Source: Eledone cirrhosa
Taxonomy: Eukaryota
Reading direction: 5' to 3'
NCBI GenBank assembly: GCA_964016885.1
Contig: OZ024742.1
Span: forward strand, 166,222,001 to 166,286,000
DNA: 64,000 bases
The notes under the pieces were generated by a model. That model had not been told where the DNA came from. It worked only from the letters and a program-made list of their open reading frames with translations, and did not search any database. The number at the start of each line of letters is the position of its first letter. Within the stretch, counting starts at the first letter, position 1. A program made the translations under genes and the position numbers. Shown here one piece after another: positions 1 through 63,900 of this stretch.

Positions 1-62
1 AAAAAATCAGGGGGAGATAATTTGTAAAAAAAAAATCAGGGGGAGATAATTTGTAAAAAAAA

Positions 63-3000
63 TCAGGGGTAGATAATTTGTAAAAAAAAATCAGGGGGAG
101 ATAATTTGTAAAAAAAAATCAGGGGGAGATAATTTCTAAAAAAATCAAGGGGAGATAATATGCAGCCGTCCAAGGGGAGATAATTTTCAGCCGTCCAAGG
201 AGAGGTAATTTCTAGCCGTCCAAGGGGAGATAATTTCCAGCCGTCCAAGGGGAGATAATTTCCAGCCGTCCAAGGGGAGATAGTTTTTTTAAAAAAATCA
301 GGCGGAGATAATTTGTAAAAAAAAAATCAGGGGGAGATAATTTGTAAAAAAAAATCAGGGGGAGATAATTTGTAAAAAAAAATCAGGGGGAGATAATTTG
401 TAAAAAAAATCAGGGGGAGATAATTAGTAAAAAAAATCAAGGGGAGATAATTTCCAGCCGTCCAAGGGGAGGTAATATCTAGCCGTCCAAGGGGAGATAA
501 TTTCCAGCCGTCCAAGGGGAGATAATTTCCAGCCGTCCAAGGGTAGATAATATCCAGCCGTCCAAGTAGACATATTTTCCAGCCGTCCAAGGAGAGGTAA
601 TTTCTAGCCGTCCAAGGGGAGATAAATTCCAGCCTCCAAGGGGAGATAATTTCCAGCCAGCCAAGGGGAGATAATTTGTAAAAAAATCAGGGGGAGATAA
701 TTTGTAAAAAAAATCAGGGGGAGATAATTTGTAAAAAAAAATCAGGGGGAGATAATTTGTAAAAAAAAATCAGGGGGAGATAATTTGTAAAAAAAATCAA
801 GGGGAGATAATTTGTAAAAAAAAATCAGGGGGAGATAATTTGTAAAAAAAAATCAGGGGGAGATAATTTGTAAAAAAAAATCAGGGGGAGATAATTTGTA
901 AAAAAAATCAAGGGGAGATAATTTCCAGCCGTCCAAGGAGAGATAATTTTAAAAAAAAATCAGGCGGAGATAATTTGTAAAAAAAAATCAGGGGGAGATA
1001 ATTTGTAAAAAAAAATCAGGGGGAGATAATTTGTAAAAAAAATCAAGGGGAGATAATTTCCAGCCGTCCAAGGGGAGATAATTTCCAGCCGTCCAAGGGG
1101 AGATAATTTTTTTAAAAAAATCAGGCGGAGATAATTTGTAAAAAAAATCAGGGGGAGATAATTTGTAAAAAAAAATCAGGGGGAGATAATTTGTAAAAAA
1201 AAATCAGGGGGAGATAATTTCCAGCCGTCCAAGGTAAGATAATTTCCAGCCCTCCAAGGGGCTATAATTTCCAGCCGTCCAAGGGTAGATAATATCCAGC
1301 CGTCCAAGTAGACATATTTTCCAGCCGTCCAAGGAGAGGTAATTTCTAGCCGTCCAAGGGGAGATAAATTCCAGCCTCCAAGGGGAGATAATTTCCAGCC
1401 AGCCAAAGGGAGATAATTTGTAAAAAAATCAGGGGGAGATAATTTGTAAAAAAAATCAGGGGGAGATAATTTGTAAAAAAAAATCAGGGGGAGATAATTT
1501 GTAAAAAAAAATCAGGGGGAGATAATTTGTAAAAAAAAATCAGGGGGAGATAATTTGTAAAAAAAATCAAGGGGAGATAATTTCCAGCCGTCCAAGGGGA
1601 GATAATTTTCAGCCGTCCAAGGGGAGATAATTTCCAGCCGTCCAAGGGGAGATAATTTCCATCCTTCCAAGGGGAGATAATTTCCAGCCGTCCAAGGGGA
1701 GATAATTTTCAGCCGTCCAAGGGGAGATAATTTCCCGCCAGCCAAGGGAAGATAATATTTTAAAAAATCAGGCGGAGATAATTTGTAAAAAAAATCAGGG
1801 GGAGATAATTTGTAAAAAAAAAATCAGGGGGAGATAATTTGTAAAAAAAATCAGGGGGAGATAATTTGTAAAAAAAAATCAGGGGTAGATAATTTGTAAA
1901 AAAAAATCAGGGGGAGATAATTTGTAAAAAAAATCAGGGGGAGATAATTTGTAAAAAAAATCAGGGGGAGATAATTTGTAAAAAAAATCAGGGGGAGATA
2001 ATTTGTAAAAAAAAATCAGGGGTAGATAATTTGTAAAAAAAAATCAGGGGGAGATAATTTGTAAAAAAAAATCAGGGGGAGATAATTTGTAAAAAAAATC
2101 AGGGGGAGATAATTTGTAAAAAAAAATCAGGGGGAGATAATTTCCGGCCGTCCAAGGGGAGATAATTTTCAGCCGTCCAAGGGGAGATAATTTCCCGCCA
2201 GCCAAGGGAAGATAATATTTAAAAAAATCAGGCGGAGATAATTTGTAAAAAAAATCAGGGGGAGATAATTTGTAAAAAAATCAGGGGGAGATAATTTGTA
2301 AAAAAAATCAAGGGGAGATAATTTCCAGCCGTCCAAGGGGAGGTAATATCTAGCCGTCCAAGGGGAGATAATTTCCAGCCGTCCAAGAGGAGATAATTTC
2401 CAGCCGTCCAAGGGTAGATAATATCCAGCCGTCCAAGGAGACATATTTTCCAGCCGTCCAAGGAGAGGTAATTTCTAGCCGTCCAAGGGGAGATAAATTC
2501 CAGCCTCCAAGGGGAGATAATTTCCAGCCAGCCAAGGGGAGATAATTTGTAAAAAAAATCAGGGGGAGATAATTTGTAAAAAAAATCAGGGGGAGATAAT
2601 TTGTAAAAAAATCAGGGGGAGATAATTTGTAAAAAAAAAATCAGGGGGAGATAATTTGTAAAAAAAATCAGGGGGAGATGATTTGTAAAAAAAAATCAGG
2701 GGTAGATAATTTGTAAAAAAAAATCAGGGGGTGATAATTTGTAAAAAAAAATCAGGGGGAGATAATTTGTAAAAAAAATCAAGGGGAGATAATTTCCAGC
2801 CGTCGAAGGGAAGATAATTTCCAGCCCTCCAAGGGGCTATAATTTCCAGCGTCCAAGGGGAGATAATTTCCAGCCGTCCAAGGGGAGATAATTTCCAGCC
2901 GTCCAAGGGTAGATAATATCCAGCCGTCCAAGTAGACATTTTCCAGCCGTCCAAGGAGAGGTAATTTCTAGCCGTCCAAGGGGAGATAAATTCCAGCCTC

Positions 3001-4354
3001 CAAGGGGAGATAATTTCCAGCCAGCCAAGGGGAGATAATTTGTAAAAAAATCAGGGGGAGATAATTTGTAAAAAAAATCAGGGGGAGATAATTTGTAAAA
3101 AAAAATCAGGGGGAGATAATTTGTAAAAAAAATCAGGGGGAGATAATTTGTAAAAAAAATCAGGGGGAGATAATTTGTAAAAAAAATCAAGGGGAGATAA
3201 TTTCCAGCCGTCCAAGGGGAGATAATTTTCAGCCGTCCAAGGGGAGATAATTTCCAGCCGTCCAAGGGGAGATAATTTCCATCCTTCCAAGGGGAGATAA
3301 TTTCCAGCCGTCCAAGGGGAGATAATTTTCAGCCGTCCAAGGGGAGATAATTTCCCGCCAGCCAAGGGAAGATAATATTTTAAAAAATCAGGCGGAGATA
3401 ATTTGTAAAAAAAATCAGGGGGAGATAATTTGTAAAAAAATCAGGGGGAGATAATTTGTAAAAAAAAAATCAGGGGGAGATAATTTGTAAAAAAAATCAG
3501 TGGGAGATAATTTGTAAAAAAAAATCAGGGGTAGATAATTTTTAAAAAAAAATCAGGGGGAGATAATTTGTAAAAAAAAAATCAGGGGGAGATAATTTGT
3601 AAAAAAAATCAAGGGGAGATAATTTCCAGCCGTCCAAGGAGAGATAATTTTTAAAAAAAATCAGGCGGAGATAATTTGTAAAAAAAAATCAAGGGGAGAT
3701 AATTTGTAAAAAAAAATCAAGGGGAGATAATTTGTAAAAAAAATCAAGGGGAGATAATTTCCAGCCGTCCAAGGGAAGATAATTTCCAGCACTCCAAGGG
3801 GCTATAATTTCCAGTGTCCAAGGGGAGATAATTTCCAGCCAGCGAAGGGGAGATAATTTTTTTAAAAAAATCAGGGGGAGATATGTAAAAAAAATCAGAG
3901 GGAGATAATTTCTAAAAAAAATCAAAGGGAGATAATTTCCAGCCGTCCAAAGAGAGATAATTTCTAGCCGTCCAAGGGGAGATAATTTCCAGCCAAGGGG
4001 AGATAATTTCCAGCCGTCCAAGGGGAGATAATTATTTAAAAAATCAGGTGGAGATAATTTGTAAAAAAAATCAGGGGGAGATAATTTGTAAAAACAAAAT
4101 CAAGGGCAGATAATTTCCAGCTGTCCAAGGGGAGATAATTTCCAGCCGTGCAAGGGGAGATAATTTCCAGCCGTCCAAGGGGAGATAATTTCCATCCTTC
4201 CAAGGGGAGATAATGTCCAGCCGTCCAAGGGGAGATAATTTCCCGCCAGCCAAGGTAAGATAATTTTTAAAAAAATCAGGCGGAGATTGTAAAAAAAATC
4301 AGGGGGAGATAATTTGTAAAAAAAAAATCAGGGGGAGATAATTTGTAAAAAAAA
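63..4354 (+). repeat. HOR family I unit (~4.29 kb)
   Basis: The marker block containing GATAATATGCAGCC starts at 63 and recurs at 4355 (4292 bp). The order of variant monomers (ATTAGT, GGTAAGAT, CCGGCCG, GGGTGAT, GTCGAAGG, GCACTCC, ATGTCC) matches the units at 22277, 26572 and 52290. Confidence 0.88.
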
Positions 4355-6305
4355 TCAGGGGTAGATAATTTGTAAAAAAAAATCAGGGGGAGATAATTTG
4401 TAAAAAAAAATCAGGGGGAGATAATTTCTAAAAAAATCAAGGGGAGATAATATGCAGCCGTCCAAGGGGAGATAATTTTCAGCCGTCCAAGGAGAGGTAA
4501 TTTCTAGCCGTCCAAGGGGAGATAATTTCCAGCCGTCCAAGGGGAGATAATTTCCAGCCGTCCAAGGGGAGATAGTTTTTTTAAAAAAATCAGGCGGAGA
4601 TAATTTGTAAAAAAAAAATCAGGGGGAGATGATTTGTAAAAAAAAATCAGGGGTAGATAATTTGTAAAAAAAAATCAGGGGGTGATAATTTGTAAAAAAA
4701 AATCAGGGGGAGATAATTTGTAAAAAAAATCAAGGGGAGATAATTTCCAGCCGTCGAAGGGAAGATAATTTCCAGCCCTCCAAGGGGCTATAATTTCCAG
4801 CGTCCAAGGGGAGATAATTTCCAGCCGTCCAAGGGGAGATAATTTCCAGCCGTCCAAGGGTAGATAATATCCAGCCGTCCAAGTAGACATTTTCCAGCCG
4901 TCCAAGGAGAGGTAATTTCTAGCCGTCCAAGGGGAGATAAATTCCAGCCTCCAAGGGGAGATAATTTCCAGCCAGCCAAGGGGAGATAATTTGTAAAAAA
5001 ATCAGGGGGAGATAATTTGTAAAAAAAATCAGGGGGAGATAATTTGTAAAAAAAAATCAGGGGGAGATAATTTGTAAAAAAAATCAGGGGGAGATAATTT
5101 GTAAAAAAAATCAGGGGGAGATAATTTGTAAAAAAAATCAAGGGGAGATAATTTCCAGCCGTCCAAGGGGAGATAATTTTCAGCCGTCCAAGGGGAGATA
5201 ATTTCCAGCCGTCCAAGGGGAGATAATTTCCATCCTTCCAAGGGGAGATAATTTCCAGCCGTCCAAGGGGAGATAATTTTCAGCCGTCCAAGGGGAGATA
5301 ATTTCCCGCCAGCCAAGGGAAGATAATATTTTAAAAAATCAGGCGGAGATAATTTGTAAAAAAAATCAGGGGGAGATAATTTGTAAAAAAATCAGGGGGA
5401 GATAATTTGTAAAAAAAAAATCAGGGGGAGATAATTTGTAAAAAAAATCAGGGGGAGATAATTTGTAAAAAAAAATCAGGGGTAGATAATTTGTAAAAAA
5501 AAATCAGGGGGAGATAATTTGTAAAAAAAAAATCAGGGGGAGATAATTTGTAAAAAAAATCAAGGGGAGATAATTTCCAGCCGTCCAAGGAGAGATAATT
5601 TTTAAAAAAAATCAGGCGGAGATAATTTGTAAAAAAAAATCAAGGGGAGATAATTTGTAAAAAAAAATCAAGGGGAGATAATTTGTAAAAAAAATCAAGG
5701 GGAGATAATTTCCAGCCGTCCAAGGGAAGATAATTTCCAGCACTCCAAGGGGCTATAATTTCCAGTGTCCAAGGGGAGATAATTTCCAGCCAGCGAAGGG
5801 GAGATAATTTTTTTAAAAAAATCAGGGGGAGATATGTAAAAAAAATCAGAGGGAGATAATTTCTAAAAAAAATCAAAGGGAGATAATTTCCAGCCGTCCA
5901 AAGAGAGATAATTTCTAGCCGTCCAAGGGGAGATAATTTCCAGCCAAGGGGAGATAATTTCCAGCCGTCCAAGGGGAGATAATTATTTAAAAAATCAGGT
6001 GGAGATAATTTGTAAAAAAAATCAGGGGGAGATAATTTGTAAAAACAAAATCAAGGGCAGATAATTTCCAGCTGTCCAAGGGGAGATAATTTCCAGCCGT
6101 GCAAGGGGAGATAATTTCCAGCCGTCCAAGGGGAGATAATTTCCATCCTTCCAAGGGGAGATAATGTCCAGCCGTCCAAGGGGAGATAATTTCCCGCCAG
6201 CCAAGGGAAGATAATTTTTAAAAAAATCAGGCGGAGATTGTAAAAAAAATCAGGGGGAGATAATTTGTAAAAAAAAAATCAGGGGGAGATAATTTGTAAA
6301 AAAAA
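4355..6305 (+). repeat. Truncated HOR family I unit (1951 bp)
   Basis: Markers at 2724/2837/3078/3689/4071/4355 recur at 4675/4788/5029/5640/6022/6306, a constant offset of 1951. Junction near 4620. Confidence 0.88.
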
Positions 6306-9300
6306 TCAGGGGTAGATAATTTGTAAAAAAAAATCAGGGGGAGATAATTTGTAAAAAAAAATCAGGGGGAGATAATTTCTAAAAAAATCAAGGGGAGATA
6401 ATATGCAGCCGTCCAAGGGGAGATAATTTTCAGCCGTCCAAGGAGAGGTAATTTCTAGCCGTCCAAGGGGAGATAATTTCCAGCCGTCCAAGGGGAGATA
6501 ATTTCCAGCCGTCCAAGGGGAGATAGTTTTTTTAAAAAAATCAGGCGGAGATAATTTGTAAAAAAAAAATCAGGGGGAGATAATTTGTAAAAAAAAATCA
6601 GGGGGAGATAATTTGTAAAAAAAATCAGGGGGAGATAATTAGTAAAAAAAATCAAGGGGAGATAATTTCCAGCCGTCCAAGGGGAGGTAATATCTAGCCG
6701 TCCAAGGGGAGATAATTTCCAGCCGTCCAAGGGGAGATAATTTCCAGCCGTCCAAGGGTAGATAATATCCAGCCGTCCAAGTAGACATATTTTCCAGCCG
6801 TCCAAGGAGAGGTAATTTCTAGCCGTCCAAGGGGAGATAAATTCCAGCCTCCAAGGGGAGATAATTTCCAGCCAGCCAAGGGGAGATAATTTGTAAAAAA
6901 ATCAGGGGGAGATAATTTGTAAAAAAAATCAGGGGGAGATAATTTGTAAAAAAAAATCAGGGGGAGATAATTTGTAAAAAAAAATCAGGGGGAGATAATT
7001 TGTAAAAAAAATCAGGGGGAGATAATTTGTAAAAAAAAATCAGGGGGAGATAATTTGTAAAAAAAAATCAGGGGGAGATAATTTGTAAAAAAAAATCAGG
7101 GGGAGATAATTTGTAAAAAAAATCAGGGGGAGATAATTTGTAAAAACAAATCAAGGGGAGATAATTTCCAGCCGTCCAAGGGGAGATAATTTTCAGCCGC
7201 CCAAGGGGAGATAATTTCCCGCCAGCCAAGGGAAGATAATATTTAAAAAATCAGGCGGAGATAATTTGTAAAAAAAATCAGGGGGAGATAATTTGTAAAA
7301 AAATCAGGGGGAGATAATTTGTAAAAAAAAAATCAGGGGGAGATAATTTGTAAAAAAAATCAGGGGGAGATGATTTGTAAAAAAAATCAGGCGTAGATAA
7401 TTTGTAAAAAAAAATCAGGGGGAGATAATTTGTAAAAAAAAATCAGGGGGAGATAATTTGTAAAAAAAATCAAGAGGAGATAATTTCCAGCCGTCCAAGG
7501 GGAGATAATTTTCAGCCGTCCAAGGGGAGATAATTTCCAGCCGTCCAAGGGGAGATAATTTCCATCCTTCCAAGGGGAGATAATTTCCAGCCGTCCAAGG
7601 GGAGATAATTTCCCGCCAACCAAGGGAAGATAATTTTTAAAAAAATCAGGCGGAGATTGTAAAAAAAATCAGGGGGAGATAATTTGTAAAAAAATCAGGG
7701 GGAGATAATTTGTAAAAAAAAAATCAGGGGGAGATAATTTGTAAAAAAAATCAGGGGGAGATAATTTGTAAAAAAAAATCAAGGGGAGATAATTTGTACA
7801 AAAAATCAGGGGTATATAATTTGTAAAAAAAAATCAGGGGGAGATAATTTGTAAAAAAAAATCAGGGGGAGATAATTTGTAAAAAAAATCAAGGGGAGAT
7901 AATTTGCAGCCGTCCAAGGGGAGATAATTTTCAGCCGTCCAAGGAGAGGTAATTTCTAGCCGTCCAAGGTGAGATAATATCCAGCCGTCCAAGGGGAGAT
8001 AATTTCCAGCCGTCCAAGGGGAGATAATTTTAAAAAAAAAACAGGCGAAGATAATTTGTAAAAAAAAAATCAGGGGGAGATAATTTGTAAAAAAAAATCA
8101 GGGGGAGATAATTTGTAAAAAAAATCAGGGGGAGGTAATTTGTAAAAAAAATCAAGGGGAGATAATTTCCAGCCGTCCAAGGGAAGATAATTTCCAGCCC
8201 TCCAAGGGGCTATAATTTCCAGCGTCCAAGGGGAGATAATTTCCAGCCAGCGAAGGGGAGATAATTTTTTTTTTTTTAAATCAGGGGGACATAATTTGTA
8301 AAAAAAAATCAGGGGGAGATAATTTGTAAAAAAAATCAAGGGGAGATAATTTGTAAAAAAAAATCAGGGGGAGATAATTTGTAAAAAAAAATCAGGGGGA
8401 GATAATTTGTAAAAAAAATTAAGGGGAGATAATTTGTAAAAAAAAATCAAGGGGAGATAATTTCCAGCCGTCCAAGGAGAGGTAATTTCTAGACGTCCAA
8501 GGGGAGATAATTTCCAGCCGTCCAAGGGGAGATAATTTCCAGCCGTCCAAGGGTAGATAATATCCAGCCGTCCAAGGAGACATATTTTCCAGCTTTCCAA
8601 GGAGAGGTAATTTCTAGCCGTCCAAGGGGAGATAAATTCCAGCCTCCAAGGGGAGATAATTTCCAGCCAGCCAAGGGGAGATAATTTGTAAAAAAAATCA
8701 GGGGGAGATAATTTGTAAAAAAAATCAGGGGGAGATAATTTGTAAAAAAAATCAGGGGGAGATAATTTCCAGCCGTCCAAGGGGAGATAATTTTCAGCCG
8801 TCCAAGGGGAGATAATTTCCCGCCAGCCAAGGGAAGATAATATTTAAAAAATGAGGCGGAGATAATTTGTAAAAAAATCAGGGGGAGATAATTTGTAAAA
8901 AAAAAATCAGGGGGAGATAATTTGTAAAAAAAATCAGGGGGAGATAATTTGTAAAAAAAAATCAGGGGTAGATAATTTGTAAAAAAAAATCAGGGGGAGA
9001 TAATTTGTAAAAAAAATCAGGGGGAGATAATTTATAAAAAAAATCAAGGGGAGATAATTTCCAGCCGTCCAAGGGAAGATAATTTCAAGCCCTCCAAGGG
9101 GCTATAATTTCCAGTGTCCAAGGGGAGATAATTTCCAGCCAGCGAAGGGGAGATAATTTTTTTTTAAAAATCAGGGGGAGATTTGTAAAAAAAATCAGGG
9201 GGAGATAATTTGTAAAAAAAATCAAAGGGAGATAATTTCCAGCCGTCCAAAGAGATAATTTCTAGCCGTCCAAGGGGAGATAATTTCGAGCCAAGGGGAG

Positions 9301-10635
9301 ATAATTTCCAGCCGTCCAAGGGGAGATAATTTTTTAAAAAATCAGGTGGAGATAATTTGTAAAAAAAATCAGGGGGAGATAATTTGTAAAAACAAAATCA
9401 AGGGGAGATAATTTCCAGCTGTCCAAGGGGAGATAATTTCCAGCCGTGCAAGGGGAGATAATTTCCAGCCGTCCAAGGGGAGATAATTTCCATCCTTCCA
9501 AGGGGAGATAATTTCCAGCCGTCCAAGGGGAGATAATTTCCCGCCAGCCAAGGGAAGATAATTTTTTAAAAAATCAGGCGGAGATTGTAAAAAAAATCAG
9601 GGGGAGATAATTTGTAAAAAATCAGGGGGAGATAATTTGTAAAAAAATCAAGGGGAGATAATTTCCAGCTGTCCAAGGGGAGGTAATATCTAGCCGTCCA
9701 AGGGGAGATAATTTCCAGCCGTCCAAGGGGAGATAATTTCCAGCCGTCCAAGGGTAGATAATATCCAGCCGTCCAAGGAGACATATTTTCCAGCCGTCCA
9801 AGGAGAGGTAATTTCTAGCCGTCCAAGTGGAGATAAATTCCAGCCTCCAAGGGGAGATAATTTCCAGCCAGCCAAGGGGAGATAATTTGTAAAAAAATCA
9901 GGGGGAGATAATTTGTAAAAAAAATCAGGGGGAGATAATTTGTAAAAAAAAATCAGGGGGAGATAATTTGTAAAAAAAATCAGGGGGAGATAATTTGTAA
10001 AAAAAATCAAGGGGAGATAATTTCCAGCCGTCCAAGGGGAGATAATTTTCAGCCGTCCAAGGGGAGATAATTTCCCGCCAGCCAAGGGAAGATAATATTT
10101 AAAAAATGAGGCGGAGATAATTTGTAAAAAAAAATCAGGGGTAGATAATTTGTAAAAAAAATCAGGGGGAGATAATTTGTAAAAAAAATCAAGGGGAGAT
10201 AATTTCCAGCCGTCCAAGGAGAGATAATTTTTAAAAAAAATCAGGCGGAGATAATTTGTAAAAAAAAAATCAGGGGGAGATAATTTGTAAAAAAAAATCA
10301 GGGGGAGATAATTTGTAAAAAAAATCAAGGGGAGATAATTTCCAGCCGTCCAAGGGGAGATAATTTTCAGCCGTCCAAGGGGAGATAATTTCCAGCCGTC
10401 CAAGGGGAGATAATTTAAAAAAAAAATCAGGCGGAGATAATTTGTAAAAAAAATCAAGGGGAGATAATTTGCAACCGTCCAAGGGGACATAATTTTCAGT
10501 CGTCCAAGGAGAGGTAATTTCTAGCCGTACAAGGGGAGATAATTTCCAGCCGTCCAAGGGGAGATAATTTCCAGCCGTCCAAGGGGAGATAATTTTTTTT
10601 TAAAAATCAGGCGGAGATAATTTGTAAAAAAAAAA
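6306..10635 (+). repeat. HOR family II unit (~4.33 kb)
   Basis: Carries variants absent from family I: CCGCCAACC, TGTACAAAA, GGGTATAT, ACAGGCGAAG, T13-AAA, CTAGACGTCC, CAGCTTTCC, ATGAGGCGG, TTTCGAGCC, GCAACCGT, CCGTACAA. Confidence 0.85.
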
Positions 10636-13600: not shown

Positions 13601-14322
13601 TTTAAAAAATCAGGTGGAGATAATTTGTAAAAAAAATCAGGGGGAGATAATTTGTAAAAACAAAATCAAGGGCAGATCATTTCCAGCTGTCCAAGGGGAG
13701 ATAAATTCCAGCCGTGCAAGGGGAGATAATTTCCAGCCGTCCAAGGGGAGATAATTTCCATCCTTCCAAGGGGAGATAATTTCCAGCCGTCCAAGGGGAG
13801 ATAATTTCCCGCCAGCCAAGGGAAGATAATTTTTTAAAAAATCAGGCGGAGATTGTAAAAAAAATCAGGGGGAGATAATTTGTAAAAAAATCAGGGGGAG
13901 ATAATTTGTAAAAAAATCAACGGGAGATAATTTCCAGCTGTCCAAGGGGAGGTAATATCTAGCCGTCCAAGGGGAGATAATTTCCAGCCGTCCAAGGGGA
14001 GATAATTTCCAGCCGTCCAAGGGTAGATAATATCCAGCCGTCCAAGGAGACATATTTTCCAGCCGTCCAAGGAGAGGTAATTTCTAGCCGTCCAAGGGGA
14101 GATAATTTCCAGCCGTCCAAGGGGAGATAATTTAAAAAAAAATCAGGCGGAGATAATTTGTAAAAAAAATCAAGGGGAGATAATTTGCAACCGTCCAAGG
14201 GGACATAATTTTCAGTCGTCCAAGGAGAGGTAATTTCTAGCCGTACAAGGGGAGATAATTTCCAGCCGTCCAAGGGGAGATAATTTCCAGCCGTCCAAGG
14301 GGAGATAATTTTTTTTTAAAAA
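10636..14322 (+). repeat. HOR family II unit, shortened (~3.7 kb)
   Basis: Family II markers recur about 4.24-4.27 kb after the previous unit (7387->11635, 8364->12606, 9369->13637), with an internal deletion near 14.1 kb. Confidence 0.8.
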
Positions 14323-52289: not shown

Positions 52290-55200
52290 TCAGGGGTAGA
52301 TAATTTGTAAAAAAAAATCAGGGGGAGATAATTTGTAAAAAAAAATCAGGGGGAGATAATTTCTAAAAAAATCAAGGGGAGATAATATGCAGCCGTCCAA
52401 GGGGAGATAATTTTCAGCCGTCCAAGGAGAGGTAATTTCTAGCCGTCCAAGGGGAGATAATTTCCAGCCGTCCAAGGGGAGATAATTTCCAGCCGTCCAA
52501 GGGGAGATAGTTTTTTTAAAAAAATCAGGCGGAGATAATTTGTAAAAAAAAAATCAGGGGGAGATAATTTGTAAAAAAAAATCAGGGGGAGATAATTTGT
52601 AAAAAAAAATCAGGGGGAGATAATTTGTAAAAAAAATCAGGGGGAGATAATTAGTAAAAAAAATCAAGGGGAGATAATTTCCAGCCGTCCAAGGGGAGGT
52701 AATATCTAGCCGTCCAAGGGGAGATAATTTCCAGCCGTCCAAGGGGAGATAATTTCCAGCCGTCCAAGGGTAGATAATATCCAGCCGTCCAAGTAGACAT
52801 ATTTTCCAGCCGTCCAAGGAGAGGTAATTTCTAGCCGTCCAAGGGGAGATAAATTCCAGCCTCCAAGGGGAGATAATTTCCAGCCAGCCAAGGGGAGATA
52901 ATTTGTAAAAAAATCAGGGGGAGATAATTTGTAAAAAAAATCAGGGGGAGATAATTTGTAAAAAAAAATCAGGGGGAGATAATTTGTAAAAAAAAATCAG
53001 GGGGAGATAATTTGTAAAAAAAATCAAGGGGAGATAATTTGTAAAAAAAAATCAGGGGGAGATAATTTGTAAAAAAAAATCAGGGGGAGATAATTTGTAA
53101 AAAAAAATCAGGGGGAGATAATTTGTAAAAAAAATCAAGGGGAGATAATTTCCAGCCGTCCAAGGAGAGATAATTTAAAAAAAAAATCAGGCGGAGATAA
53201 TTTGTAAAAAAAAATCAGGGGGAGATAATTTGTAAAAAAAAATCAGGGGGAGATAATTTGTAAAAAAAATCAAGGGGAGATAATTTCCAGCCGTCCAAGG
53301 GGAGATAATTTCCAGCCGTCCAAGGGGAGATAATTTTTTTAAAAAAATCAGGCGGAGATAATTTGTAAAAAAAATCAGGGGGAGATAATTTGTAAAAAAA
53401 AATCAGGGGGAGATAATTTGTAAAAAAAAATCAGGGGGAGATAATTTCCAGCCGTCCAAGGTAAGATAATTTCCAGCCCTCCAAGGGGCTATAATTTCCA
53501 GCCGTCCAAGGGTAGATAATATCCAGCCGTCCAAGTAGACATATTTTCCAGCCGTCCAAGGAGAGGTAATTTCTAGCCGTCCAAGGGGAGATAAATTCCA
53601 GCCTCCAAGGGGAGATAATTTCCAGCCAGCCAAGGGGAGATAATTTGTAAAAAAATCAGGGGGAGATAATTTGTAAAAAAAATCAGGGGGAGATAATTTG
53701 TAAAAAAAAATCAGGGGGAGATAATTTGTAAAAAAAAATCAGGGGGAGATAATTTGTAAAAAAAAATCAGGGGGAGATAATTTGTAAAAAAAATCAAGGG
53801 GAGATAATTTCCAGCCGTCCAAGGGGAGATAATTTTCAGCCGTCCAAGGGGAGATAATTTCCAGCCGTCCAAGGGGAGATAATTTCCATCCTTCCAAGGG
53901 GAGATAATTTCCAGCCGTCCAAGGGGAGATAATTTTCAGCCGTCCAAGGGGAGATAATTTCCCGCCAGCCAAGGGAAGATAATATTTTAAAAAATCAGGC
54001 GGAGATAATTTGTAAAAAAAATCAGGGGGAGATAATTTGTAAAAAAATCAGGGGGAGATAATTTGTAAAAAAAAAATCAGGGGGAGATAATTTGTAAAAA
54101 AAATCAGGGGGAGATAATTTGTAAAAAAAAATCAGGGGTAGATAATTTGTAAAAAAAAATCAGGGGGAGATAATTTGTAAAAAAAATCAGGGGGAGATAA
54201 TTTGTAAAAAAAATCAGGGGGAGATAATTTGTAAAAAAAAATCAGGGGGAGATAATTTGTAAAAAAAAATCAGGGGTAGATAATTTGTAAAAAAAAATCA
54301 GGGGGAGATAATTTGTAAAAAAAAATCAGGGGGAGATAATTTGTAAAAAAAATCAGGGGGAGATAATTTGTAAAAAAAAATCAGGGGGAGATAATTTCCG
54401 GCCGTCCAAGGGGAGATAATTTTCAGCCGTCCAAGGGGAGATAATTTCCCGCCAGCCAAGGGAAGATAATATTTAAAAAAATCAGGCGGAGATAATTTGT
54501 AAAAAAAATCAGGGGGAGATAATTTGTAAAAAAATCAGGGGGAGATAATTTGTAAAAAAAATCAAGGGGAGATAATTTCCAGCCGTCCAAGGGGAGGTAA
54601 TATCTAGCCGTCCAAGGGGAGATAATTTCCAGCCGTCCAAGAGGAGATAATTTCCAGCCGTCCAAGGGTAGATAATATCCAGCCGTCCAAGGAGACATAT
54701 TTTCCAGCCGTCCAAGGAGAGGTAATTTCTAGCCGTCCAAGGGGAGATAAATTCCAGCCTCCAAGGGGAGATAATTTCCAGCCAGCCAAGGGGAGATAAT
54801 TTGTAAAAAAAATCAGGGGGAGATAATTTGTAAAAAAAATCAGGGGGAGATAATTTGTAAAAAAATCAGGGGGAGATAATTTGTAAAAAAAAAATCAGGG
54901 GGAGATAATTTGTAAAAAAAATCAGGGGGAGATGATTTGTAAAAAAAAATCAGGGGTAGATAATTTGTAAAAAAAAATCAGAGGGTGATAATTTGTAAAA
55001 AAAAATCAGGGGGAGATAATTTGTAAAAAAAATCAAGGGGAGATAATTTCCAGCCGTCGAAGGGAAGATAATTTCCAGCCCTCCAAGGGGCTATAATTTC
55101 CAGCGTCCAAGGGGAGATAATTTCCAGCCGTCCAAGGGGAGATAATTTCCAGCCGTCCAAGGGTAGATAATATCCAGCCGTCCAAGTAGACATTTTCCAG

Positions 55201-56578
55201 CCGTCCAAGGAGAGGTAATTTCTAGCCGTCCAAGGGGAGATAAATTCCAGCCTCCAAGGGGAGATAATTTCCAGCCAGCCAAGGGGAGATAATTTGTAAA
55301 AAAATCAGGGGGAGATAATTTGTAAAAAAAATCAGGGGGAGATAATTTGTAAAAAAAAATCAGGGGGAGATAATTTGTAAAAAAAATCAGGGGGAGATAA
55401 TTTGTAAAAAAAATCAGGGGGAGATAATTTGTAAAAAAATCAAGGGGAGATAATTTCCAGCCGTCCAAGGGGAGATAATTTTCAGCCGTCCAAGGGGAGA
55501 TAATTTCCAGCCGTCCAAGGGGAGATAATTTCCATCCTTCCAAGGGGAGATAATTTCCAGCCGTCCAAGGGGAGATAATTTTCAGCCGTCCAAGGGGAGA
55601 TAATTTCCCGCCAGCCAAGGGAAGATAATATTTTAAAAAATCAGGCGGAGATAATTTGTAAAAAAAATCAGGGGGAGATAATTTGTAAAAAAATCAGGGG
55701 GAGATAATTTGTAAAAAAAAATCAGGGGGAGATAATTTGTAAAAAAAATCAGTGGGAGATAATTTGTAAAAAAAAATCAGGGGTAGATAATTTTTAAAAA
55801 AAAATCAGGGGGAGATAATTTGTAAAAAAAAAATCAGGGGGAGATAATTTGTAAAAAAAATCAAGGGGAGATAATTTCCAGCCGTCCAAGGAGAGATAAT
55901 TTTTAAAAAAAATCAGGCGGAGATAATTTGTAAAAAAAAATCAAGGGGAGATAATTTGTAAAAAAAATCAAGGGGAGATAATTTCCAGCCGTCCAAGGGA
56001 AGATAATTTCCAGCACTCCAAGGGGCTATAATTTCCAGTGTCCAAGGGGAGATAATTTCCAGCCAGCGAAGGGGAGATAATTTTTTTAAAAAAATCAGGG
56101 GGAGATATGTAAAAAAAATCAGAGGGAGATAATTTCTAAAAAAAATCAAAGGGAGATAATTTCCAGCCGTCCAAAGAGAGATAATTTCTAGCCGTCCAAG
56201 GGGAGATAATTTCCAGCCAAGGGGAGATAATTTCCAGCCGTCCAAGGGGAGATAATTATTTAAAAAATCAGGTGGAGATAATTTGTAAAAAAAATCAGGG
56301 GGAGATAATTTGTAAAAACAAAATCAAGGGCAGATAATTTCCAGCTGTCCAAGGGGAGATAATTTCCAGCCGTGCAAGGGGAGATAATTTCCAGCCGTCC
56401 AAGGGGAGATAATTTCCATCCTTCCAAGGGGAGATAATGTCCAGCCGTCCAAGGGGAGATAATTTCCCGCCAGCCAAGGTAAGATAATTTTTAAAAAAAT
56501 CAGGCGGAGATTGTAAAAAAAATCAGGGGGAGATAATTTGTAAAAAAAAAATCAGGGGGAGATAATTTGTAAAAAAAA
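52290..56578 (+). repeat. HOR family I unit (4289 bp)
   Basis: Markers at 52290 and 56579. Variant order is the same as in 63-4354 and 26572-30890. Confidence 0.87.
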
Positions 56579-59500
56579 TCAGGGGTAGATAATTTGTAAA
56601 AAAAAATCAGGGGGAGATAATTTGTAAAAAAAAATCAGGGGGAGATAATTTCTAAAAAAATCAAGGGGAGATAATATGCAGCCGTCCAAGGGGAGATAAT
56701 TTTCAGCCGTCCAAGGAGAGGTAATTTCTAGCCGTCCAAGGGGAGATAATTTCCAGCCGTCCAAGGGGAGATAATTTCCAGCCGTCCAAGGGGAGATAGT
56801 TTTTTTAAAAAAATCAGGCGGAGATAATTTGTAAAAAAAAAATCAGGGGGAGATAATTTGTAAAAAAAAATCAGGGGGAGATAATTTGTAAAAAAAAATC
56901 AGGGGGAGATAATTTGTAAAAAAAATCAGGGGGAGATAATTAGTAAAAAAAATCAAGGGGAGATAATTTCCAGCCGTCCAAGGGGAGGTAATATCTAGCC
57001 GTCCAAGGGGAGATAATTTCCAGCCGTCCAAGGGGAGATAATTTCCAGCCGTCCAAGGGTAGATAATATCCAGCCGTCCAAGTAGACATATTTTCCAGCC
57101 GTCCAAGGAGAGGTAATTTCTAGCCGTCCAAGGGGAGATAAATTCCAGCCTCCAAGGGGAGATAATTTCCAGCCAGCCAAGGGGAGATAATTTGTAAAAA
57201 AATCAGGGGGAGATAATTTGTAAAAAAAATCAGGGGGAGATAATTTGTAAAAAAAAATCAGGGGGAGATAATTTGTAAAAAAAAATCAGGGGGAGATAAT
57301 TTGTAAAAAAAATCAGGGGGAGATAATTTGTAAAAAAAAATCAGGGGGAGATAATTTGTAAAAAAAAATCAGGGGGAGATAATTTGTAAAAAAAAATCAG
57401 GGGGAGATAATTTGTAAAAAAAATCAGGGGGAGATAATTTGTAAAAACAAATCAAGGGGAGATAATTTCCAGCCGTCCAAGGGGAGATAATTTTCAGCCG
57501 CCCAAGGGGAGATAATTTCCCGCCAGCCAAGGGAAGATAATATTTAAAAAATCAGGCGGAGATAATTTGTAAAAAAAATCAGGGGGAGATAATTTGTAAA
57601 AAAATCAGGGGGAGATAATTTGTAAAAAAAAAATCAGGGGGAGATAATTTGTAAAAAAAATCAGGGGGAGATGATTTGTAAAAAAAATCAGGGGTAGATA
57701 ATTTGTAAAAAAAAATCAGGGGGAGATAATTTGTAAAAAAAAATCAGGGGGAGATAATTTGTAAAAAAAATCAAGAGGAGATAATTTCCAGCCGTCCAAG
57801 GGGAGATAATTTTCAGCCGTCCAAGGGGAGATAATTTCCAGCCGTCCAAGGGGAGATAATTTCCATCCTTCCAAGGGGAGATAATTTCCAGCCGTCCAAG
57901 GGGAGATAATTTCCCGCCAACCAAGGGAAGATAATTTTTAAAAAAATCAGGCGGAGATTGTAAAAAAAATCAGGGGGAGATAATTTGTAAAAAAATCAGG
58001 GGGAGATAATTTGTAAAAAAAAAATCAGGGGGAGATAATTTGTAAAAGAAATCAGGGGGAGATAATTTGTAAAAAAAAATCAAGGGGAGATAATTTGTAC
58101 AAAAAATCAGGGGTATATAATTTGTAAAAAAAAATCAGGGGGAGATAATTTGTAAAAAAAAATCAGGGGGAGATAATTTGTAAAAAAAATCAAGGGGAGA
58201 TAATTTGCAGCCGTCCAAGGGGAGATAATTTTCAGCCGTCCAAGGAGAGGTAATTTCTAGCCGTCCAAGGTGAGATAATATCCAGCCGTCCAAGGGGAGA
58301 TAATTTCCAGCCGTCCAAGGGGAGATAATTTAAAAAAAAAAACAGGCGAAGATAATTTGTAAAAAAAAAATCAGGGGGAGATAATTTGTAAAAAAAAATC
58401 AGGGGGAGATAATTTGTAAAAAAAATCAGGGGGAGGTAATTTGTAAAAAAAATCAAGGGGAGATAATTTCCAGCCGTCCAAGGGAAGATAATTTCCAGCC
58501 CTCCAAGGGGCTATAATTTCCAGCGTCCAAGGGGAGATAATTTCCAGCCAGCGAAGGGGAGATAATTTTTTTTTTTTTAAATCAGGGGGACATAATTTGT
58601 AAAAAAAATCAAGGGGAGATAATTTGTAAAAAAAAATCAGGGGGAGATAATTTGTAAAAAAAAATCAGGGGGAGATAATTTGTAAAAAAAATTAAGGGGA
58701 GATAATTTGTAAAAAAAAATCAAGGGGAGATAATTTCCAGCCGTCCAAGGAGAGGTAATTTCTAGACGTCCAAGGGGAGATAATTTCCAGCCGTCCAAGG
58801 GGAGATAATTTCCAGCCGTCCAAGGGTAGATAATATCCAGCCGTCCAAGGAGACATATTTTCCAGCTTTCCAAGGAGAGGTAATTTCTAGCCGTCCAAGG
58901 GGAGATAAATTCCAGCCTCCAAGGGGAGATAATTTCCAGCCAGCCAAGGGGAGATAATTTGTAAAAAAAATCAGGGGGAGATAATTTGTAAAAAAAATCA
59001 GGGGGAGATAATTTGTAAAAAAAATCAGGGGGAGATAATTTCCAGCCGTCCAAGGGGAGATAATTTTCAGCCGTCCAAGGGGAGATAATTTCCCGCCAGC
59101 CAAGGGAAGATAATATTTAAAAAATGAGGCGGAGATAATTTGTAAAAAAAATCAGGGGGAGATAATTTGTAAAAAAATCAGGGGGAGATAATTTGTAAAA
59201 AAAAAATCAGGGGGAGATAATTTGTAAAAAAAATCAGGGGGAGATAATTTGTAAAAAAAAATCAGGGGTAGATAATTTGTAAAAAAAAATCAGGGGGAGA
59301 TAATTTGTAAAAAAAATCAGGGGGAGATAATTTATAAAAAAAATCAAGGGGAGATAATTTCCAGCCGTCCAAGGGAAGATAATTTCAAGCCCTCCAAGGG
59401 GCTATAATTTCCAGTGTCCAAGGGGAGATAATTTCCAGCCAGCGAAGGGGAGATAATTTTTTTTTAAAAATCAGGGGGAGATTTGTAAAAAAAATCAGGG

Positions 59501-60936
59501 GGAGATAATTTGTCAAAAAAATCAAAGGGAGATAATTTCCAGCCGTCCAAAGAGATAATTTCTAGCCGTCCAAGGGGAGATAATTTCGAGCCAAGGGGAG
59601 ATAATTTCCAGCCGTCCAAGGGGAGATAATTTTTTAAAAAATCAGGTGGAGATAATTTGTAAAAAAAATCAGGGGGAGATAATTTGTAAAAACAAAATCA
59701 AGGGGAGATAATTTCCAGCTGTCCAAGGGGAGATAATTTCCAGCCGTGCAAGGGGAGATAATTTCCAGCCGTCCAAGGGGAGATAATTTCCATCCTTCCA
59801 AGGGGAGATAATTTCCAGCCGTCCAAGGGGAGATAATTTCCCGCCAGCCAAGGGAAGATAATTTTTTAAAAAATCAGGCGGAGATTGTAAAAAAAATCAG
59901 GGGGAGATAATTTGTAAAAAAATCAGGGGGAGATAATTTGTAAAAAAATCAAGGGGAGATAATTTCCAGCTGTCCAAGGGGAGGTAATATCTAGCCGTCC
60001 AAGGGGAGATAATTTCCAGCCGTCCAAGGGGAGATAATTTCCAGCCGTCCAAGGGTAGATAATATCCAGCCGTCCAAGGAGACATATTTTCCAGCCGTCC
60101 AAGGAGAGGTAATTTCTAGCCGTCCAAGTGGAGATAAATTCCAGCCTCCAAGGGGAGATAATTTCCAGCCAGCCAAGGGGAGATAATTTGTAAAAAAATC
60201 AGGGGGAGATAATTTGTAAAAAAAATCAGGGGGAGATAATTTGTAAAAAAAAATCAGGGGGAGATAATTTGTAAAAAAAATCAGGGGGAGATAATTTGTA
60301 AAAAAAATCAAGGGGAGATAATTTCCAGCCGTCCAAGGGGAGATAATTTTCAGCCGTCCAAGGGGAGATAATTTCCCGCCAGCCAAGGGAAGATAATATT
60401 TAAAAAATGAGGCGGAGATAATTTGTAAAAAAAAATCAGGGGTAGATAATTTGTAAAAAAAATCAGGGGGAGATAATTTGTAAAAAAAATCAAGGGGAGA
60501 TAATTTCCAGCCGTCCAAGGAGAGATAATTTTTAAAAAAAATCAGGCGGAGATAATTTGTAAAAAAAAAATCAGGGGGAGATAATTTGTAAAAAAAAATC
60601 AGGGGGAGATAATTTGTAAAAAAAATCAAGGGGAGATAATTTCCAGCCGTCCAAGGGGAGATAATTTTCAGCCGTCCAAGGGGAGATAATTTCCAGCCGT
60701 CCAAGGGGAGATAATTTAAAAAAAAAATCAGGCGGAGATAATTTGTAAAAAAAATCAAGGGGAGATAATTTGCAACCGTCCAAGGGGACATAATTTTCAG
60801 TCGTCCAAGGAGAGGTAATTTCTAGCCGTACAAGGGGAGATAATTTCCAGCCGTCCAAGGGGAGATAATTTCCAGCCGTCCAAGGGGAGATAATTTTTTT
60901 TTAAAAATCAGGCGGAGATAATTTGTAAAAAAAAAA
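56579..60936 (+). repeat. HOR family II unit (4358 bp)
   Basis: Family II marker series at +50273 to +50301 from 6306-10635. Confidence 0.85.
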
Positions 60937-63900
60937 TCAGGGGGAGATAATTTGTAAAAAAAAATCAGGGGGAGATAATTTGTAAAAAAAAATCAGGGGG
61001 AGATAATTTCTAAAAAAATCAAGGGGAGATAATATGCAGCCGTCCAAGGGGAGATAATTTTCAGCCGTCCAAGGAGAGGTAATTTCTAGCCGTCCAAGGG
61101 GAGATAATTTCCAGCCGTCCAAGGGGAGATAATTTCCAGCCGTCCAAGGGGAGATAGTTTTTTTAAAAAAATCAGGCGGAGATAATTTGTAAAAAAAAAA
61201 TCAGGGGGAGATAATTTGTAAAAAAAAATCAGGGGGAGATAATTTGTAAAAAAAAATCAGGGGGAGATAATTTGTAAAAAAAATCAGGGGGAGATAATTA
61301 GTAAAAAAAATCAAGGGGAGATAATTTCCAGCCGTCCAAGGGGAGGTAATATCTAGCCGTCCAAGGGGAGATAATTTCCAGCCGTCCAAGGGGAGATAAT
61401 TTCCAGCCGTCCAAGGGTAGATAATATCCAGCCGTCCAAGTAGACATATTTTCCAGCCGTCCAAGGAGAGGTAATTTCTAGCCGTCCAAGGGGAGATAAA
61501 TTCCAGCCTCCAAGGGGAGATAATTTCCAGCCAGCCAAGGGGAGATAATTTGTAAAAAAAATCAGGGGGAGATAATTTGTAAAAAAAATCAGGGGGAGAT
61601 AATTTGTAAAAAAAATCAGGGGGAGATAATTTCCAGCCGTCCAAGGGGAGATAATTTTCAGCCGTCCAAGGGGAGATAATTTCCCGCCAGCCAAGGGAAG
61701 ATAATATTTAAAAAATGAGGCGGAGATAATTTGTAAAATAAATCAGGGGGAGATAATTTGTAAAAAAATCAGGGGGAGATAATTTGTAAAAAAAAAATCA
61801 GGGGGAGATAATTTGTAAAAAAAATCAGGGGGAGATAATTTGTAAAAAAAAATCAGGGGTAGATAATTTTTAAAAAAAAATCAGGGGGAGATAATTTGTA
61901 AAAAAAATCAGGGGGAGATAATTTATAAAAAAAATCAAGGGGAGATAATTTCCAGCCGTCCAAGGGAAGATAATTTCAAGCCCTCCAAGGGGCTATAATT
62001 TCCAGTGTCCAAGGGGAGATAATTTCCAGCCAGCGAAGGGGAGATAATTTTTTTTTAAAAATCAGGGGGAGATTTGTAAAAAAAATCAGGGGGAGATAAT
62101 TTGTAAAAAAAATCAAAGGGAGATAATTTCCAGCCGTCCAAAGAGATAATTTCTAGCCGTCCAAGGGGAGATAATTTCGAGCCAAGGGGAGATAATTTCC
62201 AGCCGTCCAAGGGGAGATAATTTTTAAAAAAATCAGGTGGAGATAATTTGTAAAAAAAATCAGGGGGAGATAATTTGTAAAAACAAAATCAAGGGCAGAT
62301 AATTTCCAGCTGTCCAAGGGGAGATAATTTCCAGCCGTGCAAGGGGAGATAATTTCCAGCCGTCCAAGGGGAGATAATTTCCATCCTTCCAAGGGGAGAT
62401 AATTTCCAGCCGTCCAAGGGGAGATAATTTCCCGCCAGCCAAGGGAAGATAATTTTTTAAAAAATCAGGCGGAGATTGTAAAAAAAATCAGGGGGAGATA
62501 ATTTGTAAAAAAATCAGGGGGAGATAATTTGTAAAAAAATCAAGGGGAGATAATTTCCAGCTGTCCAAGGGGAGGTAATATCTAGCCGTCCAAGGGGAGA
62601 TAATTTCCAGCCGTCCAAGGGGAGATAATTTCCAGCCGTCCAAGGGTAGATAATATCCAGCCGTCCAAGGAGACATATTTTCCAGCCGTCCAAGGAGAGG
62701 TAATTTCTAGCCGTCCAAGTGGAGATAAATTCCAGCCTCCAAGGGGAGATAATTTCCAGCCAGCCAAGGGGAGATAATTTGTAAAAAAATCAGGGGGAGA
62801 TAATTTGTAAAAAAAATCAGGGGGAGATAATTTGTAAAAAAAAATCAGGGGGAGATAATTTGTAAAAAAAATCAGGGGGAGATAATTTGTAAAAAAAATC
62901 AAGGGGAGATAATTTCCAGCCGTCCAAGGGGAGATAATTTTCAGCCGTCCAAGGGGAGATAATTTCCCGCCAGCCAAGGGAAGATAATATTTAAAAAATG
63001 AGGCGGAGATAACTTGTAAAAAAAAATCAGGGGTAGATAATTTGTAAAAAAAATCAGGGGGAGATAATTTGTAAAAAAAATCAAGGGGAGATAATTTCCA
63101 GCCGTCCAAGGAGAGATAATTTTTAAAAAAAATCAGGCGGAGATAATTTGTAAAAAAAAAATCAGGGGGAGATAATTTGTAAAAAAAAATCAGGGGGAGA
63201 TAATTTGTAAAAAAAATCAAGGGGAGATAATTTCCAGCCGTCCAAGGGGAGATAATTTTCAGCCGTCCAAGGGGAGATAATTTCCAGCCGTCCAAGGGGA
63301 GATAATTTTAAAAAAAAATCAGGCGGAGATAATTTGTAAAAAAAATCAAGGGGAGATAATTTGCAACCGTCCAAGGGGACATAATTTTCAGTCGTCCAAG
63401 GAGAGGTAATTTCTAGCCGTACAAGGGGAGATAATTTCCAGCCGTCCAAGGGGAGATAATTTCCAGCCGTCCAAGGGGAGATAATTTTTTTTTAAAAATC
63501 AGGCGGAGATAATTTGTAAAAAAAAAATCAGGGGGAGATAATTTGTAAAAAAAAATCAGGGGGAGATAATTTGTAAAAAAAAATCAGGGGGAGATAATTT
63601 GTAAAAAAAATCAAGGGGAGATAATTTCCAGCCGTCCAAGGGAAGATAATTTCCAGCCCTCCAAGGGGCTATAATTTCCAGCGTCCAAGGGGAGATAATT
63701 TCCAGCCAGCGAAGGGGAGATAATTGTTTTAAAAAAATCATTGGGAGATTTGTAAAAAAAATCAGGGGGAGATAATTAATAAAAAAAATCAAGGGGAGAT
63801 AATTTCCAGCCGTCCAAGGGGAGGTAATATCTAGCCGTCCAAGGGGAGATAATTTCCAGCCGTCCAAGGGGAGATAATTTCCAGCCGTCCAAGGGTAGAT

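What the first reader, a model, noticed from the sequence alone, without database searches (positions are those of the whole stretch)
63..61500. ~4.0-4.3 kb higher-order repeats of about 150-165 tiny monomers, in two diverged families
Seen: the GATAATATGCAGCC marker block recurs at 63, 4355, 6306, 10636, 18309, 22277, 26572, 30891, 39256, 45304, 49272, 52290, 56579 and 60937, with modal spacing of 3.97-4.36 kb. Family I and family II units carry different sets of diagnostic variants. They share homologous modules, e.g. 3745-4290 vs 9045-9590, both with CCAGTGTCC/CAGCGAAG/CAAAGGG/CAGGTGG/AAAACAAAA/CGTGCAAG in the same order. Established: HORs are typical of primate alpha satellite, where they comprise far fewer and longer (171 bp) monomers. 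Such a high monomer count per HOR is unusual.
Basis: partly seen in the sequence, partly recalled or inferred. Interest (0 to 1): 0.7.

Follow-up and report, generated by a model that had tools for sequence, protein, structure and literature searches.

The report
Nested two-monomer satellite in a cephalopod
The window is part of a multi-million-base repeat near the middle of a cephalopod chromosome, in which two short sister repeats (25 and about 28 bases) are nested into real but irregular units of about 4,000 bases, likely built by repeated unequal copying as in known human and plant satellites; a centromere role is possible but untested.

Summary
The repeats are real. The window is an unbroken satellite of 2,456 monomers of two types (A 27-29 bp, B 25 bp) in alternating runs. 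30% of 100-mers recur 3.9-4.4 kb away, against at most 7% in shuffles. Units of 152-168 monomers split into two groups (23 I, 11 II over 464 kb).

This is not a regimented alpha-satellite-type repeat. Only 34 of 82 marker-to-marker units have that size, at most three alike lie in a row, and I and II are differently ordered mosaics of shared blocks, likely two shortcuts through one 8.3-kb cycle. Young 8-55 kb duplications overlie them, and the 4-kb period fades elsewhere.

The genome is a cephalopod's. The satellite lies mid-chromosome on six chromosomes, with about 5 Mb on this one, in two opposed arms. High monomer counts have a precedent: human DYZ1 is a 3.6-kb unit of a 5-bp repeat. Searches found the sequence in no paper. 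The scan noted similar nested satellites, of other sequence, elsewhere in this genome.

Verdict: a new member of a known kind, probably pericentromeric heterochromatin; centromere odds about 25%.

The parts
1..64000 (+). Unbroken one-orientation satellite of 2,456 monomers: 1,268 type A (27-29 bp, A-tract tail) and 1,188 type B (25 bp), sharing a 14-base head, in 224 A-run+B-run blocks (median 295 bp). Part of the ~2-Mb plus arm of an array at G000 C3 162.7-167.9 Mb
147..271 (+).
439..662 (+). Block P (nine B monomers); related copies occur four times in unit I and three times in unit II, and its three-monomer core also occurs on C1 and C123
147..4438 (+). Type I unit (Ia), 4,292 bp, 164 monomers; other Ia copies at 22361-26655, 26656-30974, 52374-56662
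3746..4251 (+). Module R, type I allele
4439..6389 (+). Shortened type I unit, 1,951 bp, 75 monomers, with an in-register internal deletion
6390..10719 (+). Type II unit, 4,330 bp, 166 monomers; second full copy at 56663-61020
9046..9549 (+). Module R, type II allele (97.4% identical to type I, 12 diagnostic columns)
14437..14974 (+). Linker L, leading from the end of II into the body of I; its diagnostic monomers are in neither 4-kb unit; also at 35385, 41516 and 63613
18393..22360 (+). Type I sub-variant Ib, 3,968 bp, 152 monomers; second copy at 45388-49355
30975..39339 (+). Full 8,365-bp cycle (M, II body, linker, I body), 321 monomers; inferred parent of both 4-kb units
16680..24576 (+). 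7.9-kb segment repeated at 43675-51570 (shift 26,995; 4 point differences)
10873..64000 (+). First copy (runs to 65,257) of a 54.7-kb tandem duplication; the second copy lies just downstream of the window (15 point differences, 3 monomer-level indels)

Best explanation
This is a non-coding satellite of two sister monomers nested at four levels (monomer, 0.1-0.5-kb run blocks, 4- and 8-kb units, 8-55-kb duplications), likely produced by repeated in-register unequal exchange or template switching inside satellite-rich, probably pericentromeric heterochromatin. Shown: the levels, their falling divergence, whole-monomer breakpoints, a fixed order of blocks, and arrays of the same monomers with other block orders on six chromosomes. 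Inferred, step 1: A-only and B-only ancestors were mixed through their shared 14-base head in very few events, and the mixed blocks were then copied. Step 2: an 8.3-kb cycle (M, II body, linker, I body) formed locally. Step 3: crossovers between its internal P-like and M-like blocks cut out either half and left the 4-kb I and II units. Step 4: larger duplications now copy mixed strings of these units. The 4-kb length is a historical accident of this array segment, not a selected unit.
For: Divergence falls with level: A versus B 43%; within a type 10-12%; blocks inside a unit 1.3-2.5%; module R I versus II 2.6%; unit copies 0.07-0.3%; large duplications 0-0.07%. Only 3 of 17,822 monomers in 464 kb fall outside 21-31 bp, two of them at the ends of the stretch, so rearrangements keep register. 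Of 1,651 B-to-A junctions, 1,239 pass through a T-rich hybrid monomer and 399 follow one B variant; both classes recur in 10 of 10 samples from C1, C2 and the other C3 arm. An A-only array lies at C5 64.29 Mb (390 of 390 monomers), and a B-like layer without A runs lies at the inner edge of this arm. Token parse between -102 and +190 kb: 26 pure I, 8 pure II, 10 full cycles and 11 other strings of 55. The linker's diagnostic monomers are in neither pure unit, which favours deletion from the cycle. Tandem or near-tandem duplications with shifts of 54.7, 28.4, 21.4, 17.4 and 8.3 kb. The share of 200-mers whose next copy lies at 3.5-4.5 kb is 15-21% within -100..+200 kb, 3% at -200..-100 kb, and 5-10% in four other 100-kb stretches. 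Unequal exchange is the explanation given for DYZ1 and for HORs generally.
Against: No crossover was observed directly; unequal crossover, break-induced replication and rolling-circle steps cannot be told apart here. The direction (cycle first, halves later) rests on the linker argument alone. The A-only and B-like arrays could be derived rather than ancestral. A 30-kb stretch on C21 also has its periods at 3.6 and 4.1 kb. The heterochromatin state is inferred from position and neighbouring satellites, not measured. One 17.4-kb duplication has no difference at all and may be an assembly product.
Confidence: 0.78

Rival explanations
1. The array is the working centromere of this chromosome (and perhaps of C2): CENP-A would sit on the young, homogenised I/II segment, which would then correspond to an active HOR core. 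This is compatible with the best explanation's mechanism and adds a function.
For: All arrays found on chromosome-scale contigs lie at 0.37-0.63 of the length: C1 251-252 and 279 of 443 Mb, C2 247-250.8 of 416, C3 162.7-167.9 of 379, C4 140.1 of 379, C5 64.3 of 135, C21 17.6-17.7 of 35. By hand, six chromosomes in roughly the middle third is about 1 in 700, post hoc. The arrays are megabases long, with array-specific block orders (at most 8% of 150-mers shared with the window outside this arm). Octopod C-bands are mostly centromeric (PMC6160780, passages).
Against: Seen on only 6 of 27-29 chromosome-scale contigs in four pattern searches (two of them listed only the first 100 hits). The C4, C5 and C21 arrays are small (flanking samples 0.1-0.2 Mb away are other sequence). 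C1 has two arrays 28 Mb apart. At least five other tandem repeats sit beside or between the C3 arms. The monomers are far below the usual 100-200 bp, though 32 of 263 candidate families are under 100 bp. An unchecked note names a 196-bp repeat as the stronger general candidate.
Confidence: 0.25
2. The long-range structure is partly an assembly product: long-read assembly laid alleles or repeated paths in tandem and made the large duplications.
For: The 17.4-kb duplication has 0 differences in 668 monomers. A 2.9-Mb unplaced contig, C123, holds the same satellite.
Against: No N in 464 kb. The other duplications differ by 4-17 point changes plus monomer indels. The 4-kb units are shorter than a long read and carry fixed diagnostic columns. 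Four runs of two samples hold 61-79% of the sampled words of 3700-4700, but they may be the assembly's source.
Confidence: 0.1
3. About 4 kb is a selected or mechanistically preferred unit length (chromatin loop or circle size) that arrays of this family reach independently.
For: Dominant offsets of 3.4-4.8 kb in several 10-kb samples from the other C3 arm, C1, C4, C21 and C123; periods of 3.6 and 4.1 kb on C21.
Against: 10-kb samples favour offsets near 5 kb by geometry. In four unrelated 100-kb stretches only 5-10% of 200-mers have their next copy at 3.5-4.5 kb, and the top bins are 7.0, 4.5, 31.7 and 7.9 kb.
Confidence: 0.06

Closest known systems
Human DYZ1 (HSat3, Yq12); 10.1101/2022.12.01.518724, passages read
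   Same: Kilobase nested unit built from a tiny monomer (~3.6 kb from a 5-bp unit), units over 98% identical, overlaid by iterative tandem duplications ascribed to unequal exchange.
   Different: One monomer type and one main unit length; here there are two sister monomers in alternating runs, mosaic units of variable length, and arrays on several chromosomes.
Heterogeneous (Arabidopsis-like) HORs of the Darwin Tree of Life centromere atlas; 10.64898/2026.09.17.752431, section 6 and passages read
   Same: Abundant HOR blocks without strict long-range period; arrays more alike within than between chromosomes; sub-nucleosomal monomers occur (32 of 263 families).
   Different: Those are centromere candidates chosen by a pipeline. 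The main text names no cephalopod or mollusc; its supplementary table was not seen.
Human alpha-satellite HORs and superHORs; PMC8336445, passages read,
   Same: Nested tandem repeat, shortened HOR variants, hybrid monomers at junctions, strings of HORs repeated as superHORs.
   Different: 171-bp monomers, 2-46 per HOR, canonical HOR in runs of up to hundreds; here 25-29-bp monomers, 150-320 per unit, runs of at most three.
Tribolium madens intermingled major and minor satellites with macro-dyad symmetry; PMC13081366, passages read
   Same: Two related satellites intermingled in megabase regions; arrays in opposed orientation.
   Different: There the inversions are frequent, tens of kb long, with conserved inversion sites. 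Here none was seen in 464 kb, and the opposed megabase arms on C3 and C2 are separated by about 0.2-0.3 Mb of other sequence that differs between the two.
Bovine 1.706 satellite (recalled, no call; search found nothing)
   Same: Recalled as a ~2.3-kb unit made of segments of two related ~23-bp repeats.
   Different: Not checked here; a lead only.

Membership tests
Nested / higher-order satellite repeat (general) | Higher-order units more alike than neighbouring monomers | tested here: met
   Monomers differ by 10-12% within a type; unit copies by 0.07-0.3% point differences.
Nested / higher-order satellite repeat (general) | Long off-diagonals above shuffled controls | tested here: met
   17.2% of 300-mers recur at 3.9-4.4 kb against at most 0.8% in 60 shuffles.
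Regimented alpha-satellite-type HOR | One canonical unit repeated in long regular runs | tested here: not met
   34 of 82 units are of canonical size; longest same-type run is 3.
Regimented alpha-satellite-type HOR | ~171-bp monomers, 2-46 per HOR | tested here: not met
   25-29-bp monomers, 151-168 per canonical unit; alpha range.
Heterogeneous HOR array | Abundant paired blocks with heterogeneous spacing, no long-range period | tested here: met
   57-77% of 200-mers have a later copy in each of eight 100-kb stretches, at distances from 1 to over 50 kb.
Heterogeneous HOR array | Greater similarity within than between arrays | tested here: met
   150-mers shared with the window: 22-72% in five samples further along this arm (but 2% and 7% near its two edges), 0-8% in the other arm and on C1, C2, C4, C5, C21, C123.
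Centromeric satellite | One array on every chromosome | tested here: inconclusive
   Found on 6 of 27-29 chromosome-scale contigs, twice on C1; the sampling was by rare variants and incomplete.
Centromeric satellite | CENP-A occupancy and primary constriction | not testable with these tools
   No chromatin or cytogenetic data.
Tribolium-type macro-dyad satellite | Frequent inverted subarrays with conserved inversion sites | tested here: not met
   No reverse-strand monomer core in 464 kb; the gaps between the opposed arms of C3 and C2 hold different sequence in 20 samples.

The most novel reading that the evidence does not exclude
This A/B satellite is the working centromere of at least one giant chromosome of an octopod-type cephalopod. 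The young I/II segment is its active core, and the opposed megabase arms on C3 and C2 mark the centromere. The conserved alternation of a GC-richer B run with an AT-rich run (A runs now, a low-complexity AT spacer in the old edge layer) is a maintained chromatin pattern rather than a relic. It would be a sequence-defined cephalopod centromere candidate, which my searches did not find in print.
Probability: 0.15. Interest if true: 0.6.

Novelty: new member of a known kind. Interest (0 to 1): 0.27.

Why it matters
As an architecture it is a clear but ordinary case of nested satellite growth. Its value is modest and practical. It records almost every step of how a complex satellite is assembled: two sister monomers, a few founding junctions, blocks, an 8.3-kb cycle with two shortcuts, and young duplications. 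It also gives probes for a mid-chromosome candidate in a group for which my searches found no described centromere sequence. If CENP-A sat on it, cephalopod centromere position and the origin of the four giant chromosomes could be tested directly.

Tried and rejected
Preferred 4-kb length across arrays: suggested by 10-kb samples, not borne out by 100-kb stretches.

Shared core between the opposed arms: the C3 gap holds 55-, 56-, 48- and 88-bp repeats and dispersed sequence; the C2 gap holds microsatellites and a 469-bp repeat (20 samples, output partly cut).

Coding or RNA role: 12 ATG frames of 80 aa or more, all minus-strand copies of two repeat-derived frames; no Rfam match in bases 1-15000, the only part scanned.

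GATA-site constraint: 87% of monomers hold GATAA and some head positions are nearly invariant, but the A and G of the site vary in 12% and 6% of B monomers, so this is inconclusive.

Literature: five monomer motifs gave 0 papers; two searches gave 0; some searches gave listings with no title on a cephalopod satellite. Subscription journals are missing, and the atlas preprint's supplementary table of 263 families was not seen and may list this family.

One search stopped at a script error after printing its first results; the rest was rerun. Species, sample and study were not determined.
Full report
1. What is in the window. All 64 kb is one satellite on one strand. A two-template decomposition gives 2,456 monomers with 155 distinct sequences: 1,268 of type A (mostly 27-28 bp, ending in an A tract) and 1,188 of type B (mostly 25 bp). 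The two share a 14-base head and differ in the tail; mean edit fractions are 0.10 within A, 0.12 within B and 0.43 between them. They alternate in runs of 1-15, giving 224 A+B blocks of median 295 bp. No Rfam family matched the first 15 kb, and the only ATG frames of 80 aa or more are 12 copies of two repeat-derived frames.

2. Checking the observation. Eight of 13 marker-to-marker units are 3,968-4,358 bp with 152-167 monomers. 30.3% of 100-mers and 17.2% of 300-mers have an exact copy 3.9-4.4 kb away; the highest values in 60 shuffles of three kinds were 7.0% and 0.8%. The six motifs lie in the stated order in both modules.

With 200 kb added on each side (464 kb, no N, 17,822 monomers), the 34 canonical-size units split 23 to 11 without overlap. 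Module R forms two clades at 100/99 support with 12 diagnostic columns. That tree used 98 of 124 extracted modules; 26 rearranged ones, mostly far upstream, were dropped, and the bootstrap had not fully settled.

3. Where the reading fails. Only 34 of 82 units (31% of the bases) have the canonical size, 13 are 7.6-8.8 kb, and at most three canonical units of one type lie in a row. I and II are not collinear homologues. Their whole-unit distance is 0.189, against 0.224 +/- 0.015 for block-shuffled II and minima of 0.188-0.229 for pieces of other arrays. Yet their first 763 bp are 99.9% identical, module R is 97% identical, and 97 of 165 monomers of I lie in short segments that are 96.9-99.9% identical to parts of II, partly in another order. 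Each unit also repeats itself internally (708 bp at 98.7% and 550 bp at 97.5% in I; 414 and 399 bp at about 98% in II).

4. The block order. Parsed by diagnostic monomers, the region from -102 to +190 kb consists of 26 pure I strings, 8 pure II strings, 10 full cycles (marker, II body, linker, I body; about 8.3 kb) and 11 other strings. The linker (14437-14974) carries monomers found in neither pure unit. I infer that the cycle came first and that crossovers between its repeated P-like or M-like blocks removed one half or the other; this direction rests on the linker alone.

On top lie young duplications, mostly tandem, with shifts of 54.7 kb (covering most of the window; 15 point differences), 28.4 kb (17), 21.4 kb (4), 17.4 kb (0) and 8.3 kb (6). 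Only 3 of 17,822 monomers fall outside 21-31 bp, two of them at the ends of the stretch, so breakpoints keep monomer register, as homology-guided exchange would.

5. Origin of the A/B mix. Of 1,651 B-to-A junctions, 1,239 go through a T-rich hybrid monomer and 399 follow one particular B variant; both classes are found in 10 of 10 samples from other arrays. An A-only array exists on C5. The inner edge of this arm is a layer of at least 11.5 kb of B-like runs alternating with an AT-rich low-complexity spacer, with a sharp switch to the present A/B form. The simplest inference is that two sister satellites were joined a few times through their common head and the joints were then copied.

6. Genome context. 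The window is G000 C3 166,222,001-166,286,000 in a 3.0-Gb genome. A hemocyanin gene family is present, in clusters of about seven units, and its last unit matches squid and octopus chains best (655 and 644 bits against 457 for the next single unit). The animal is therefore a cephalopod; that seven units point to an octopod, and which species these PDB chains come from, is recalled knowledge. Four contigs are 379-443 Mb, the next is 135 Mb, and 27-29 are chromosome-scale.

On C3 the satellite was sampled on the minus strand from 162.74 to 165.64 Mb and on the plus strand from 165.86 to 167.89 Mb, with other repeats between and beyond, and once more at 169.1 Mb. Continuity between samples is assumed. 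It also occurs on C1 (251-252 and 279 Mb), C2 (minus 247.1-248.3, plus 248.6-250.8 Mb), C4 (140.1), C5 (64.3), C21 (17.6-17.7) and unplaced contigs. A two-monomer pattern has 13,465 matches in the genome and 51 in the window, which scales roughly to 17 Mb. Other arrays use the same monomers and some of the same blocks in other orders and share at most 8% of 150-mers with the window.

7. Is 4 kb special? No. The share of 200-mers whose next copy is 3.5-4.5 kb away is 15-21% from -100 to +200 kb, 3% from -200 to -100 kb, and 5-10% in four 100-kb stretches of the other arm, C123, C2 and C1. The small C21 array is an exception, with periods of 3.6 and 4.1 kb.

8. Comparison with what is known. Human alpha HORs hold 2-46 monomers; plants and animals show both regimented and heterogeneous HORs, and 32 of 263 candidate families have monomers under 100 bp (10.64898/2026.09.17.752431, section 6 read; no cephalopod or mollusc in its main text; supplements not seen). 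DYZ1 is a ~3.6-kb nested repeat of a pentamer with iterative duplications (10.1101/2022.12.01.518724, passages), so the monomer count is not exceptional. Hybrid monomers and superHORs are described for alpha satellite (PMC8336445, passages), and intermingled sister satellites in opposed arrays for Tribolium (PMC13081366, passages). The array works like a DYZ1-type nested, heterogeneous HOR satellite and fails the test for a regimented alpha-type HOR. The monomer motifs were found in no paper of the library.

9. Function. The mid-chromosome position on six chromosomes, the megabase size and the crowd of neighbouring satellites fit centromere-region heterochromatin; octopod C-bands are mostly centromeric (PMC6160780, passages). 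Against being the centromere repeat: it was seen on 6 of 27-29 chromosomes, three of the arrays are small, C1 has two, and unchecked notes of this scan name other candidates. I put the odds that this array carries the kinetochore at about 25%.

10. Verdict. A real, well-preserved nested satellite and a new member of a known kind; interest 0.27.

Noticed in passing
L113 1-10000 and L114 1-1530 (G000 C3 165.862-165.8735 Mb): Old edge layer: runs of 18-35 B-like monomers alternate with 200-400-bp AT-rich low-complexity spacers (unit about 0.8-1.2 kb). It is preceded by a 19-bp shortened monomer run and a ~300-bp GC-rich patch of short self-complementary repeats, and switches sharply to the A/B form.
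   Followed up: partly
L128 (G000 C5 64.29-64.30 Mb): Diverged A-only array with a 5.7-kb period.
   Followed up: partly
G000 C3 162.7-167.9 Mb and C2 247.1-250.8 Mb: On both chromosomes a minus-strand megabase arm is followed by a plus-strand arm; C1 also has a minus array (251) and a plus array (279). The gaps differ in content.
   Followed up: partly
L105-L110, L006, L007 (G000 C3 165.65-165.85 Mb): The gap between the arms holds a 55-bp AT-rich satellite, a 56-bp satellite over at least 75 kb, and 48-bp and 88/146-bp repeats.
   Followed up: no
L101, L102, L019, L139, L141 (G000 C3 162.68 and 167.94-168.3 Mb): Very AT-rich (17-19% GC) short-unit repeats flank the array on both outer sides; 11-14-bp units at 168.0-168.3 Mb.
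   Followed up: no
L125-L127 (G000 C4 139.9-140.6 Mb): The small C4 array sits inside a large 8-bp-unit satellite that changes orientation between samples.
   Followed up: no
G000 contig lengths: Four giant chromosomes (443, 416, 379, 379 Mb) against 135 Mb or less for the rest; possibly fusion products.
   Followed up: no
G000 C26 21.93-22.02 Mb and C1 173.74-173.91 Mb: Hemocyanin genes: an inverted pair on C26 and three tandem copies on C1, about seven functional units each; further units on C27.
   Followed up: partly
window coordinates 136759-172144 (downstream, L045-L049 region): A 17.4-kb tandem duplication with no difference in 668 monomers: very recent or an assembly product.
   Followed up: partly
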